From a plasmid, in the sequence record NZ_CP106960.1: a stretch of 64,000 bases of DNA; one strand, 5' to 3'. Positions 60,001-63,000 of this stretch are shown piece by piece. The position numbers are program-made. The stretch's first letter is position 1, and each line of letters opens with the position of its first letter.

Positions 60001-63000
60001 GCAGCGATTCAGGCACCTCATTAAGCAAGCCGTGCTCCTGCACGTAGTCATACGCATAATCTTCCTCGCTTGCGGCTTCACCACACCAGGCATCTTCAAA
60101 CGCGTCGTAATCACATTCACCGGTGAACTCCACCCAGGCAATGAAAGCCTCGTCCTTACCGTCATCAACCGCGCGCTTGTAGGCCTCAATAAAAGCCCAG
60201 TCAACCGAGCTTTCTGAAGCAAATTTATCCGGAATGCCCTCCCAGTCCTGGAACATCAGTTCCGGATCGGATTCGTTTGCGTGCAACGCATGGCATGCCT
60301 CCATAAAATCTGACTTATCGTCAAAATCGGTGAGATCGAACCATTTACCGAAGAGACTGCCGCAGTTGTATTTGTGGTAAGTACCAACATAAATCGCCGG
60401 GGTGGTAGTGCTCATAAAAATCCTCCGTTGCCAGTGTCGTCTGAGTTCCGGCTTACGCCGTGCCGACACGACAGCCCGACTTCGAGCGGAAGATGCAAGG
60501 GCGACACCGCAGGCCGCAGCGCAGATAAAAGCGAGGACGTTCTGGACGGTTCTCCCGCGAAACCTGAGCGGGAGAACGACGGGAAGAACGGCATCAGGCG
60601 TAAAAATCTGCGACCGGGCGAGGATGGCGGCGAAGCGACCCCTTGCATCTGGAGCGTTCGGGCTAAAGTGAAGGCACGGCGTTAGCCGCAGACCGCACGG
60701 ATGTTTTTGCCTGCGTGGCCGTAACATCGTGGAGGTCACGCCGGTAAAGCGGAGCGTGCGACATCCTTTTTGCTTAAAAGCGGGGCGCTCTGCCCCGCCT
60801 CAATTCAGGCTGCGATCCGGATCCCGGAAAATGATTTCATCATCACATCGATTTCCGCTCGGGCTGTTTTCACAACATCCCGTAACCAGTGGCGGTCAAA
60901 CCAGACACGTGACGGGCTGTCAGGATGCCGAAGGGCATAGGGAACATGCGTCTGGCCGACGGTGCGCCCGTTACACTCCAGGCGGATCTGCAGACGGCGG
61001 AAGGTTTCTTTCTCGTCGAGCACGGCTTTCAGCCTGGCATCCAGCGTATCGTTGTCCCATTCAGCATCGTCCTGAACCTGCTCCACCTCTGTCACCGTCA
61101 GGGTGAAATTGCGTGTGCGGCGGGTCAGTACCAGCGGTTCTGTGGCAGGCCGCAGCGCTTCGGTCAGGCGATACCCTGCCGACGCCACGCAGCTGCAGAC
61201 GTGATTGATTTCGTCTCGCAGTGCTTTCAGCAGGCAGAGGATTTGTGGCGTATTCATCCCGGCAGGACAGTTGTCGTATTCCAGTGAAATGGTTCCGGCA
61301 TGTGCCTTTCGGTGCCCCAGCGAGTTCCTGTAAAGGCGAACGACCAGTTCGCTTCTGTGGATCAGCGGCAGCAGCATCTGCACTGCCTGTTCGCTCATTA
61401 ATCCCCGCAGGGCGATTTCAGGTAACAGTCGCTGCAGTTGCGCGGCATCGAGCTGGCCATAAAACGCCACGCCCTCCCCACGCGAGTAATTCAGGCTGGT
61501 ATCGATATCCATCGTGGCTGGCCAGCCACGCGAAACCAGTGTGTTGCGGGTATGGCGGTGCATAAAGCGATAAGCGGTGGTCATGATGTTCTCCTTATAC
61601 TGATGCGGCGACGTCTTCGCCGTGCCGACACGACAGCCCGACTTCGAGCGGAAGATGCAAGGGCGACACCGCAGGCCGCAGCGCAGATAAAAGCGAGGAC
61701 GTTCTGGACGGTTCTCCCGCGAAACCTGAGCGGGAGAACGACGGGAAGAACGGCATCAGGCGTAAAAATCTGCGACCGGGCGAGGATGGCGGCAAAGCGA
61801 ACCCTTGCATCTGGAGCGTTCGGGCTAAAGTGAAGGCACGGCGCTGATATCCGCCGCGCTGGCGCGGCATAAAAAGCGGAGTAAACGACATCCTTGTGCG
61901 TTGAAAATACCGGCCAGCAAATCCTGGCCGGGCATAGCGTTATCGGGTGTACTCCTGCCATTCCATATCAAATCTGTCCCTGACCACCGGCAATTCGGGC
62001 GTACCGGTGACGATCCAACTGTCGAGGAACTTCAGTCCACGCAGCAATGTATTTTCAACTTCATCCAGTAACACTATGCTGCTGAACCAGACCTTTCTCT
62101 CAGGAAATAGCCAGCAGTGATCTGCGCTGTCCTCTTTCACATCTGGCCACCAGGTTCGCCCCATAGACATGGCGCCAGCTTCGGCCAGGGCAAGATTTTC
62201 AGCTTCAATAAGCATATAAACATCGGTTTCAGTGCAGTGGGTTTCGGTCTGAAATCCTGTCAGCCAGGTGTTCATAGGTCTTTTACCTCATTGATGGCAA
62301 ACCGCAGGTGATCCCAGTTAAATCCATAGTTAGCATCGTGCGCGTAATAAGCGCGCTCCATCGCCGCTGCAATCGTCGCGCTATCAAGCGAGCTATCGAC
62401 CGCAAGAAAATCATCTTCAAGCCAGAATGTGCCGGTGCAGAGCGCGTCCTGGGGGTATTCCTGCAGACGGGTCATCATTCCTCCCACAGTCATCTCTCGC
62501 CGCAAAATATGGGACGGGGTAAGCACAGAATCTGCGACATCGTTCCAGCACCATTCTTCATCATCGGGTACAGACTGCTGAATGGTCTGGAGCTGCACAC
62601 CCGGCATCCTGGAAAGTCGTTCCAGCACATCCCCCAGATACAGTCTTTCACCGCTACCGTCTTCACTTCCCAGGTAATGGTTATTGAGATAGACGGCAAA
62701 CTCGCCATTATCGAGATCAATACAGGTCAGTCTGAACATTACGCTCTCATCCTCATTCGGCACCCAGTTGCGCCGTGCCGACACGACAGCCCGACTTCGA
62801 GCGGAAGATGCAAGGGCGACACCGCAGGCCGCAGCGCAGATAAAAGCGATGACGTTCTGGACGGTTCTCCCGCGAAAATTGAGCGGGAGAACGACGGGAA
62901 GAACGGCATCAGGCTTAAAATTTGCGACCGGGCGAGGATGGCGGCGAAGCGAACCCTTGCATCTGCAGCGTTCGGGCTAAAGTGAAGGCACGGCGCTGAT

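What the first reader, a model, noticed from the sequence alone, without database searches (positions are those of the whole stretch)
60456..62996. Family-2 hairpin repeat (~227 bp x3, 1.16-kb periodicity) driving ardA and two unknown operons
Three near-identical copies begin gccgtgccgacacgacagc and end gtgaaggcacggcg. The termini are reverse-complementary, so each copy can fold as a single long imperfect hairpin. Copy 1 directly precedes ardA, which in ColIb-P9 is driven by an ssi promoter. Copies 2 and 3 precede unknown ORFs. Small ORFs called inside the repeats on both strands are almost certainly artefacts. This is a second Frpo-like family, distinct from family 1, in the same leading region.
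Basis: seen in the sequence. Interest (0 to 1): 0.6.

Follow-up and report, generated by a model that had tools for sequence, protein, structure and literature searches.

The report
Three single-stranded-DNA promoter hairpins (ssp2 family)

Summary
Three direct copies lie at 60456-60681, 61618-61843 and 62771-62996 (96-99% identical). Each folds as a long imperfect hairpin (about -65 to -73 kcal/mol, z = -6.2).

All three sit in an IncI1-like leading region. Its oriT is near 48.1-48.3 kb and every gene is on the - strand, so the + strand is the transferred template strand. The copies precede ardA, a 259-aa ORF, and a 155-aa/111-aa ORF pair.

They are homologous (nhmmer E 1e-63 or lower, about 60% identity) to the class 2 ssDNA promoters PardA and PklcA of pESBL, whose start sites were mapped by 5' RACE (Wen 2025). 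They are equally homologous to ssp2 of F, which is both a promoter and a replication roadblock (Fraikin 2026). Candidates Frpo'4, Frpo*1 and Frpo*3 of Samuel 2024 look related by eye.

Across 29 homologues:
- 24 of 48 stem pairs show compensatory changes, against 4-7 in slid controls.
- TTGCAW and TAnnnT hexamers on the non-template arm are present in all 29.

The transferred strand also folds better than its complement in 26 of 26 sequence clusters.

The elements share no detectable sequence similarity with classical Frpo, which is the window's family 1. So this is a second family that works like Frpo.

Verdict: interpretation supported; a new member of a known kind; modest interest.

The parts
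60456..60681 (+). ssp2/class 2 hairpin, copy 1, read on the transferred (template) strand. Upstream of ardA.
61618..61843 (+). ssp2/class 2 hairpin, copy 2. Upstream of the 259-aa ORF.
62771..62996 (+). ssp2/class 2 hairpin, copy 3. Upstream of the 155-aa + 111-aa ORF pair.
60643..60648 (+). -35-like hexamer TTGCAT on the 3' (non-template) arm of copy 1, fully paired with 60493-60498. Equivalents: 61805-61810 and 62957-62962.
   Evidence: TTGCAW present in 29/29 homologues
60664..60669 (+). -10-like hexamer TAAAGT on the 3' arm of copy 1, partly unpaired (AAA bubble). Equivalents: 61826-61831 and 62978-62983. T1, A2 and T6 are invariant in 29 homologues.
60456..60465 (-). Predicted transcription start zone. 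The template base lies opposite a point about 7 nt past the -10, near 60461 (near 61623 in copy 2 and 62775 in copy 3). The RNA runs toward lower coordinates. Inferred, not measured.
   Evidence: pairing table; inference from sigma-70 geometry
60549..60577 (+). Apical stem-loop GTTCTCCCGCGAAACCTGAGCGGGAGAAC. It is the tip of the roughly 70-nt apical extension that class 3 hairpins lack. Equivalents: 61711-61739 and 62864-62892.
60746..60779 (+). Conserved flanking block AAAGCGGAGC..GCGACATCC, 3' of the hairpin on the transferred strand. Equivalents: 61873-61906 and 63025-63058. Function unknown.
59915..60415 (-). ardA (166 aa). RBS GGAGGA lies 7 nt before the ATG.
60805..61584 (-). 259-aa ORF. 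32% identical to the 258-aa F protein encoded just upstream of F ssp2. Matches phrog_8919 (unknown function).
62272..62739 (-). 155-aa acidic ORF (pI 4.25), unknown function. The true start is probably ATG 62739, not the GTG at 62784 inside the hairpin.
61940..62275 (-). 111-aa acidic ORF (pI 4.39), unknown function. Its start overlaps the end of the 155-aa ORF.
61910..61931 (-). Terminator-like hairpin plus T-tract that closes the 155/111-aa operon, just before copy 2.
60780..60798 (-). GC-rich hairpin followed by TTTTAA that closes the 259-aa ORF, just before copy 1. Seen by eye; below the scan's T-run threshold.
   Evidence: sequence
48106..48290 (.). oriT region, 78% identical to the pESBL oriT/nikA-proximal region. 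It fixes the + strand as the transferred strand and places the hairpins 12.2-14.7 kb into the leading region.

Best explanation
Each of the three copies is a class 2 single-stranded-DNA promoter, called ssp2 in plasmid F.

Proposed mechanism:
1. During conjugation the + strand of this window enters the recipient 5' to 3', starting at the IncI1-like oriT near 48.2 kb.
2. While still single-stranded, each 226-nt element folds on itself into a long imperfect hairpin.
3. The 3' arm supplies a non-template strand carrying TTGCAT and, 15 nt further on, TAAAGT. The TAAAGT sits in a small bubble. The 5' arm is the template.
4. Host sigma-70 RNA polymerase binds this pseudo-duplex. It starts near the base of the stem and transcribes leftwards along the single strand into ardA (copy 1), the 259-aa ORF (copy 2) and the 155/111-aa pair (copy 3).
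5. Once the complementary strand is made the hairpin no longer forms. The true complement of the 5' arm reads TTGCAT-19 nt-TGTCGT, which has no -10, so the promoter is switched off.

By homology with F ssp2, the stable hairpins probably also stall complementary-strand synthesis until the host helicase UvrD opens them. That would prolong the single-stranded window for all promoters closer to oriT.

Shown here: the repeats, the fold, covariation, strand asymmetry, conserved hexamers, position and orientation, and homology to mapped promoters. Inferred: activity in this plasmid, the exact start site, and the roadblock.
For: Homology
- nhmmer scores of 213-255 bits (E 1e-63 to 1e-76) link the window copies to pESBL PardA (L005:14033-14291), pESBL PklcA (L005:7086-7344) and F ssp2 (L006:8469-8728). 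Identity is 58-61%.
- Wen 2025 (PMC12672017) mapped start sites of these class 2 promoters by 5' RACE after conjugation.
- Fraikin 2026 showed that ssp2 drives yfgB/ardB and stalls conversion to dsDNA.

Structure
- In 29 homologues, 96.8% of cells are paired, against 35-40% when partners are slid.
- 24 of 48 pairs show compensatory changes, against 4-7 when slid; 0 of 500 shuffles reach this.
- The transferred strand folds 3.5-10.8 kcal/mol better than its complement in 26 of 26 clusters.

Promoter signature
- TTGCAW is present in 29/29 and TAnnnT in 29/29. T1, A2 and T6 are invariant while the middle bases vary.
- Arm lengths between the -35 duplex and the basal stem are 28/24 nt in most sequences and 24/29 nt in a variant group. 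The mean path is therefore constant, equivalent to a spacer of about 17 nt.

Context
- The region is collinear with an IncI1-like oriT/nikA/nikB arrangement, with all genes on the strand templated by the transferred strand.
- No sigma-70-like dsDNA promoter lies upstream of the three start codons.
- Each module ends in a terminator-like hairpin.
- In 126 copies from other contigs, the first downstream gene is KlcA/ArdB-like in 92 and ArdA in 26.
Against: - There are no expression data for this plasmid.
- The 15-nt spacer on the non-template arm is shorter than the sigma-70 optimum. My hexamer assignment could not be checked against the published 5' RACE figures, because the supplements are not held.
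- Most covariation separates two major subfamilies, so the number of independent events is smaller than the cell counts suggest.
- The homologue set was collected with a sequence pattern and is rich in human-gut contigs.
- Roadblock activity has been shown only for F ssp2 and only in a preprint.
Confidence: 0.85

Rival explanations
1. The repeats are ordinary double-stranded promoter/operator regions, duplicated in front of several leading-region operons and controlled by a plasmid repressor. The CUP elements of IncN plasmids pKM101/R46 work this way.
For: - Repeated intergenic elements upstream of ardA-type genes exist in R46; self-BLAST shows repeats of 430-650 bp.
- The window elements are intergenic and co-oriented with the genes.
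Against: - No sigma-70-like promoter is found on the - strand upstream of the three genes.
- In duplex form the coding-sense strand reads TTGCAT-19 nt-TGTCGT.
- Covariation maintains intra-strand pairing, which a protein operator would not require.
- The strand asymmetry of folding is unexplained by a duplex element.
- There is no homology to the R46 repeats.
Confidence: 0.05
2. The elements are selfish or neutral palindromic repeats (MITE/REP-like). Alternatively they act mainly as homologous-recombination sites that shuffle leading-region gene cassettes, with no promoter role.
For: - They have terminal inverted repeats and occur in multiple copies.
- Homology with a sister plasmid ends exactly at the last base of copy 3.
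- Related plasmids cover only 65% of the query, which suggests gain or loss of a cassette.
Against: - Orientation relative to the downstream gene is fixed: 125 of 126 copies have an ORF starting within 130 nt on the expected side.
- All copies whose context I examined lie in leading regions.
- The -35 and -10 hexamers are invariant.
- Homologues have experimentally mapped start sites.
- Recombination at the repeats is compatible with promoter function and does not replace it.
Confidence: 0.05
3. The repeat is a coding sequence (a small conserved protein) or a structured RNA gene.
For: ORFs of 78-103 aa can be drawn through the repeats on both strands. PGAP-type annotation extends one gene into copy 3.
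Against: - The in-repeat ORFs have no Pfam match at E up to 1.
- A 1-nt indel between copies shifts the frame.
- Indels among homologues are not multiples of three.
- Most homologues of the downstream protein are 155 aa and so start outside the hairpin.
- No Rfam family matches.
- In most plasmid records nothing is annotated under the match.
Confidence: 0.02
4. The hairpins act mainly as barriers or priming sites for complementary-strand synthesis. Transcription would be secondary or absent in this plasmid.
For: - F ssp2 stalls conversion at the end of its stem independently of transcription.
- Three hairpins of -65 to -69 kcal/mol in series would form a strong barrier.
- Frpo transcripts can prime DNA synthesis.
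Against: - The conserved TTGCAW/TAnnnT hexamers and the fixed 31-41 nt distance to an RBS and start codon are features of a promoter, not of a mere barrier.
- pESBL class 2 elements give mapped transcripts.
- The two roles are not exclusive, and the best explanation includes both.
Confidence: 0.1

Closest known systems
Class 2 ssDNA promoters PardA and PklcA of IncI1 plasmid pESBL (Wen et al. 2025, NAR, PMC12672017)
   Same: - Homologous sequence: nhmmer 215-216 bits; conserved blocks GCCGTGCC, GATGCA, GCCGCAGC, CGCGAAAnnTGAGCG, GACCGGG, CCCTTGCATC, GGCTAAnnT, AGGCACGGC.
- Same hairpin length and stability.
- Same position directly upstream of ardA or klcA on the transferred strand of an IncI1-type leading region.
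   Different: - Only 58-61% identical.
- Three copies here against two in pESBL.
- Two of the copies drive cargo (a 259-aa ORF and a 155/111-aa pair) that is not found behind class 2 elements in pESBL or F.
- No expression data exist for this plasmid.
ssp2 of plasmid F (Fraikin, Yamaichi, Lesterlin 2026 preprint; also identified in PMC13478746)
   Same: Homologous sequence (213 bits, 61% identity), similar dG (-66 against -65 to -69 kcal/mol) and similar GC richness. It lies upstream of an anti-restriction gene.
   Different: F has a single copy in front of yfgB/ardB. The roadblock and UvrD dependence were shown only for F. Whether three copies in series act additively is unknown.
Frpo / ssi class 1 promoters (F Frpo1 and Frpo2, ColIb-P9 ssi1-3; Masai and Arai 1997; Bates 1999; Couturier 2023)
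   Same: Same principle: a hairpin in the transferred strand reconstitutes -35 and -10 boxes, is active only as ssDNA, and drives leading-region genes. Two class 1 copies lie in the same window at 53638-53962 and 58698-59035.
   Different: No detectable sequence similarity to the family studied here. Class 1 elements are about 330 nt and have a different fold.
Class 3 / ssp3 promoter of the M.EcoGIX operon (pESBL, F)
   Same: Shares the basal stem and the promoter arm, including TTGCAT-15 nt-TAACGT (nhmmer E 6e-8; blastn 76% over 71 nt).
   Different: It is about 160 nt long and lacks the roughly 70-nt apical extension. It is reported to have no roadblock activity. No full class 3 copy was found in the window.
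Frpo'4, Frpo*1 and Frpo*3 candidates from an insect-gut metagenome element (Samuel et al. 2024, Nature, Supplementary Table 2)
   Same: By eye, the same family. They share the terminal GCCGTG/CACGGC arms, ATGCAgGGGCG, CGCGAAACCTGAGCGGG, CCCTTGCAT, CCCGGCTAAGAT and the flanking GCGGAGC..GCGACATCC block.
   Different: They are computational candidates only. Frpo*1 and Frpo*3 have short apical parts, like class 3.
CUP repeats of IncN plasmids pKM101/R46 (recalled from Delver and Belogurov 1997; not read here)
   Same: Repeated promoter-bearing elements placed in front of ardA, ardB and other leading-region genes.
   Different: Not homologous (nhmmer finds nothing at E below 0.6). From my own knowledge, they are described as repressor-controlled double-stranded promoters.

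Membership tests
Class 2 ssDNA promoter / ssp2 | Sequence homology to pESBL PardA/PklcA and F ssp2 | tested here: met
   nhmmer 213-255 bits across the full 261-position model. Alignments. Identity 58-61%.
Class 2 ssDNA promoter / ssp2 | Long, stable imperfect hairpin formed by the transferred strand | tested here: met
   dG -73.5 kcal/mol, z -6.2. 24 of 48 pairs show compensatory changes. The transferred strand is more stable than its complement in 26 of 26 clusters.
Class 2 ssDNA promoter / ssp2 | -35 and -10 boxes reconstituted in the stem and pointing at the downstream gene | tested here: met
   TTGCAT is paired and TAAAGT sits in a bubble on the 3' arm. TTGCAW and TAnnnT occur in 29/29 homologues. 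The 15-nt non-template spacer is atypical, and the published box positions could not be consulted.
Class 2 ssDNA promoter / ssp2 | Located in the leading region, with the downstream genes templated by the transferred strand | tested here: met
   The oriT homologue lies at 48106-48290, with relaxase genes on the far side. All genes from oriT to 62.8 kb are on the - strand.
Class 2 ssDNA promoter / ssp2 | Transcription starts in the hairpin early after conjugative entry and stops after conversion to dsDNA | not testable with these tools
   Known for pESBL and F homologues only.
Class 2 ssDNA promoter / ssp2 | Stalls complementary-strand synthesis; relieved by UvrD | not testable with these tools
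   Shown for F ssp2 only. The window copies have equal or greater predicted stability.
Frpo / ssi class 1 | Sequence homology to F Frpo (ssiD) or ColIb-P9 ssi1-3 | tested here: not met
   F ssiD matches only 53638-53962 and 58698-59035 in the window. The family 2 model finds nothing at those sites.
IncN CUP elements | Sequence homology to the R46/pKM101 leading-region repeats | tested here: not met
   nhmmer with two family 2 models against R46 gives a best E of 0.67, at unrelated sites.

The most novel reading that the evidence does not exclude
Three linked readings remain open.

1. The three tandem ssp2 copies may form a serial, UvrD-gated timer that keeps the whole 12-14 kb oriT-proximal leading region single-stranded for longer than in F. 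The roughly 70-nt apical extension that separates class 2 from the related, shorter class 3 hairpin may be the roadblock determinant.
2. The two non-canonical cargoes placed under ssp2 in this lineage may be uncharacterised anti-defence or establishment proteins. These are the acidic 155-aa/111-aa pair and the 259-aa protein.
3. The conserved GCGGAGC...GCGACnTCC block next to the hairpin may be a further functional module.
Probability: 0.3. Interest if true: 0.55.

Novelty: new member of a known kind. Interest (0 to 1): 0.3.

Why it matters
ssDNA promoters decide which plasmid genes are expressed in the first minutes after conjugative entry, before restriction and other defences act. This window shows the class 2/ssp2 type outside the IncI1 and IncF model plasmids. 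The plasmid lineage is from Leclercia and Enterobacter and carries a MOBP relaxase.

The element is present in triplicate. It is used as a portable 'early expression cassette head' in front of ardA and of proteins with no known function. Those proteins become reasonable candidates for new anti-defence factors.

The family is very common: 4,441 plasmid records match, mostly Klebsiella IncF plasmids. Unannotated copies therefore cause spurious ORF calls and over-extended gene starts in many records.

Tried and rejected
- **Loose pattern scan of genome contigs.** A stricter pattern on metagenome contigs worked.
- **Rfam at E up to 1.** Nothing at the repeats; only sok and a weak antisense hit elsewhere.
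- **Pfam on five in-repeat ORFs.** Nothing.
- **Pfam, NCBIfam and PHROGs on the three unknown cargo proteins.** Only phrog_8919 (unknown function) for the 259-aa ORF.
- **PDB sequence search for the same proteins.** Only chance-level hits.
- **AlphaFold model of the 155-aa protein from 32 homologues (pLDDT 74, pTM 0.50), then Foldseek against PDB.** No match with E below 0.8.
- **Homology of the IncN CUP repeats to this family.** None.
- **Published -35, -10 and +1 positions for class 2/ssp2.** The supplements of PMC12672017 and PMC13478746 are not held, so my box assignment is my own.
- **The 34-nt flanking block as a small ORF, terminator or dsDNA promoter.** Rejected. Its ATG is not conserved, T-runs are on the wrong side of the small hairpin, and no hexamers fit (sequence inspection).
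Full report
**Observation.** The three copies are real and lie at the stated coordinates. The repeat finder reports one family of 226-nt direct repeats at 60456-60681, 61618-61843 and 62771-62996, spaced 1162 and 1153 nt apart. With gaps allowed, copies 2 and 3 are 99.1% and 96.0% identical to copy 1. Copy 3 has a 1-nt deletion. The ends of each copy are reverse-complementary: arms of 24-31 nt, about 80% complementary, 177-178 nt apart. As single-stranded DNA, the + strand of 60440-60700 folds into one long imperfect hairpin of -73.5 kcal/mol. 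The shuffle mean is -50.9, z = -6.2, and none of 200 shuffles does as well. The - strand reaches only -65.1.

**Context.** All genes in this part of the window are on the - strand. The window is collinear at 98% identity from 45218 to 62996 with Leclercia plasmid p707804-1FII. In that record the corresponding stretch carries a MOBP relaxase, mobA and mobC, then DUF932, a methylase, hok, psiA, psiB, a parB-like gene, DUF905, a Pol III theta homologue and ardA. Window 48106-48290 is 78% identical to the oriT/nikA-proximal region of the IncI1 plasmid pESBL, in mirrored orientation.

As in IncI1 and F, the relaxase genes lie on one side of oriT. On the other side, the leading-region genes are all transcribed toward oriT. 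The transferred strand is therefore the + strand, and it is the template for every one of these genes.

The hairpins lie 12.2, 13.3 and 14.5 kb from oriT. Copy 1 ends 41 nt before the ardA ATG at 60415 (Pfam ArdA, E 1e-34). Copy 2 ends 34 nt before a 259-aa ORF. Copy 3 ends 31 nt before a 155-aa ORF whose end overlaps the start of a 111-aa ORF. Each start codon has a Shine-Dalgarno sequence. Each module ends in a terminator-like hairpin: 61931-61910 was found by the scan, and 60798-60780 was seen by eye.

**Identity of the family.** Three sources describe this family.

- *Samuel et al. 2024.* Supplementary Table 2 lists candidates Frpo'4, Frpo*1 and Frpo*3 from an insect-gut element. By eye they share the terminal arms, the internal blocks and even the flanking block with the window copies.
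- *Wen et al. 2025.* This study defined three classes of ssDNA promoter in pESBL from RNA-seq and 5' RACE of early transconjugants. Class 2 comprises the hairpins 5' of ardA and klcA.
- *Fraikin et al. 2026.* This preprint renamed the F homologue ssp2. It showed that ssp2 drives yfgB/ardB and acts as a transcription-independent roadblock to complementary-strand synthesis, relieved by UvrD.

I fetched pESBL-EA11 and F and aligned the regions directly. The window copies align over their whole length with pESBL PardA, pESBL PklcA and F ssp2. nhmmer scores are 213-255 bits and identity is 58-61%. Predicted stabilities are alike: -62 to -68 kcal/mol for the published elements and -65 to -69 for the window copies.

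F Frpo/ssiD matches only 53638-53962 and 58698-59035 in the window. The family 2 model finds nothing there. Family 2 is therefore a distinct sequence family that works like Frpo.

**Is the hairpin under selection?** A pattern scan of metagenome contigs plus nhmmer gave 131 near-full copies, of which 100 are unique, in 26 clusters at 97% identity. On an alignment of 29 sequences, RNAalifold predicts 48 pairs, and 24 of them show compensatory double changes. With that structure, 96.8% of cells are paired, against 35-40% when the 3' partners are slid by 1-3 columns. Pairs with double changes number 24 against 4-7, and no shuffle out of 500 reaches the observed values.

Much of this signal separates two subfamilies, one of the window/Klebsiella type and one of the pESBL/F type, so the number of independent events is limited. 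The slid controls keep the relatedness of the sequences and still fall far short.

Independently, the transferred strand folds 3.5-10.8 kcal/mol better than its complement in 26 of 26 clusters. This is expected if G-T pairs are tolerated on the strand that actually folds.

**Promoter anatomy.**

- In the minimum-energy fold, TTGCAT (60643-60648) on the 3' arm is fully paired with 60493-60498.
- TAAAGT (60664-60669) has its first T paired, then an AAA bubble.
- A 9-10 bp GC-rich basal stem follows.
- Across the 29 homologues TTGCAW is present in all, and TAnnnT in all: TAAAGT 13, TAAGAT 9, TACGAT 5, TATAGT 1, TAGAGT 1.
- T1, A2 and T6 are invariant columns while the middle bases vary. This is the classical -10 conservation pattern.
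- The spacer on the non-template arm is 15 nt in 23 sequences, 20 nt in 5 and 14 nt in 1.
- The two arms differ in length in a compensating way: 28/24 nt in the main group and 24/29 nt in the variant group. The mean path is therefore constant and corresponds to a spacer of about 17 nt. This last step is my inference.
- A start about 7 nt past the -10 puts the template base near 60461, 61623 and 62775.

In duplex form the coding-sense strand reads TTGCAT, 19 nt, TGTCGT, which lacks a -10. The consensus scan finds no sigma-70-like site upstream of the three genes. This explains why such an element would be active only as folded single strand.

**Are the repeats translated?** No evidence supports it.

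- The in-repeat ORFs have no Pfam match at E up to 1.
- The 1-nt indel in copy 3 and non-triplet indels among homologues break the reading frames.
- Most homologues of the protein downstream of copy 3 are 155 aa, so the GTG start inside the hairpin (170 aa) is an over-extension.
- Rfam has no match.

**Cargo.** In 126 copies from other contigs, the first downstream gene is KlcA/ArdB-like in 92, ArdA in 26, the 259-aa type in 4 and the 155-aa type in 3. The last two types occur only in this plasmid lineage within my sample.

- The 259-aa protein is 32% identical to the F protein encoded just upstream of ssp2.
- The 155-aa and 111-aa proteins are acidic (pI 4.25 and 4.39; ArdA 4.05).
- They are found as an adjacent pair of 'hypothetical proteins' in 693 and 525 plasmid records, including Salmonella plasmids of pSLT size.
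- Family libraries, PDB sequences and a Foldseek search with a medium-confidence model gave no functional lead.

**Distribution and novelty.** A 351-nt query spanning copy 1 matches 4,441 plasmid records, 3,150 of them from Klebsiella, mostly with nothing annotated under the match. The family and its mechanism were published between 2024 and 2026. What is particular here is the triplication and the extra cargo. I rate it a new member of a known kind, of modest interest.

**Rivals.**

- A CUP-like double-stranded promoter is unlikely. There is no homology and no duplex promoter, and both covariation and strand asymmetry point to an intra-strand fold.
- A selfish palindromic repeat or pure recombination site does not explain the fixed orientation or the invariant hexamers. 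The repeats do coincide with rearrangement boundaries, however.
- A pure replication barrier does not explain the promoter signature. I include the barrier as a probable second function by homology with F ssp2.

Noticed in passing
window 60746-60779, 61873-61906, 63025-63058: A conserved block lies 13-50 nt 3' of each hairpin on the transferred strand: a small GC hairpin, then (G)GTAAA(A)GCGGAGC, a variable segment of 4-25 nt, then GCGACnTCCTT. It also follows pESBL PardA and PklcA, F ssp2, most of the 31 copies inspected, and Samuel's Frpo'4 and Frpo*3. Its function is unknown. It does not fit an ORF, a terminator or a duplex promoter.
   Followed up: partly
window 62996 / L001 18598: Collinearity (98%) between the window and plasmid p707804-1FII stops exactly at the last base of hairpin copy 3. 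Beyond it the two plasmids carry different + strand genes. The hairpin therefore marks the distal edge of the co-oriented leading-region block and a recombination breakpoint.
   Followed up: partly
L248 (NZ_CP042496) 4994-7799, equivalent to window 61893-61897: In Leclercia plasmid pE61_003 a 2.8-kb insertion carrying an IS110-family transposase and a DUF2971 gene sits inside the conserved flanking block of copy 2, between the two unknown-function cassettes.
   Followed up: partly
L005 (pESBL) about 3277-3440, - strand; L006 (F) 4660-4740: The class 3 promoter of the M.EcoGIX operon was described as different from all the other hairpins. Yet it shares the basal stem and promoter arm with class 2, including TTGCAT-15 nt-TAACGT (nhmmer E 6e-8; blastn 76% over 71 nt). 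It lacks the roughly 70-nt apical extension. Since ssp3 is reported to have no roadblock activity, the extension may be the roadblock determinant.
   Followed up: partly
window 53638-53962 and 58698-59035; sok at 54586-54753 (-): Two class 1 (Frpo/ssiD-like, 70% identical) copies flank hok/sok, psiA, psiB and the parB-like gene. In F, the toxin-antitoxin locus between the Frpo repeats has been suggested to guard against deletion by recombination. No such guard lies between the three ssp2 copies.
   Followed up: partly
L249 (Salmonella pSTY1-1808) 2991-3500: In pSLT-type IncF plasmids the homologues of the 155-aa/111-aa pair are the most oriT-distal leading genes. They are preceded by a different hairpin of -65 kcal/mol, with no similarity to classes 1-3, that carries TTAAAC-16 nt-TACAAT near its tip. 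It may be a further ssDNA promoter class.
   Followed up: partly
window 62739-62784 and L001 17873-18385: Gene callers (PGAP in the sister plasmid, JGI in metagenomes) start the 155-aa gene at a GTG inside the hairpin, giving 170 aa. Most homologues are 155 aa. This is an annotation artefact caused by the unannotated element.
   Followed up: yes
window 63222-63899 (+): A 225-aa ORF with no Pfam match lies on the opposite strand, in an AT-rich stretch immediately beyond copy 3. It is absent from the sister plasmid at this position.
   Followed up: no
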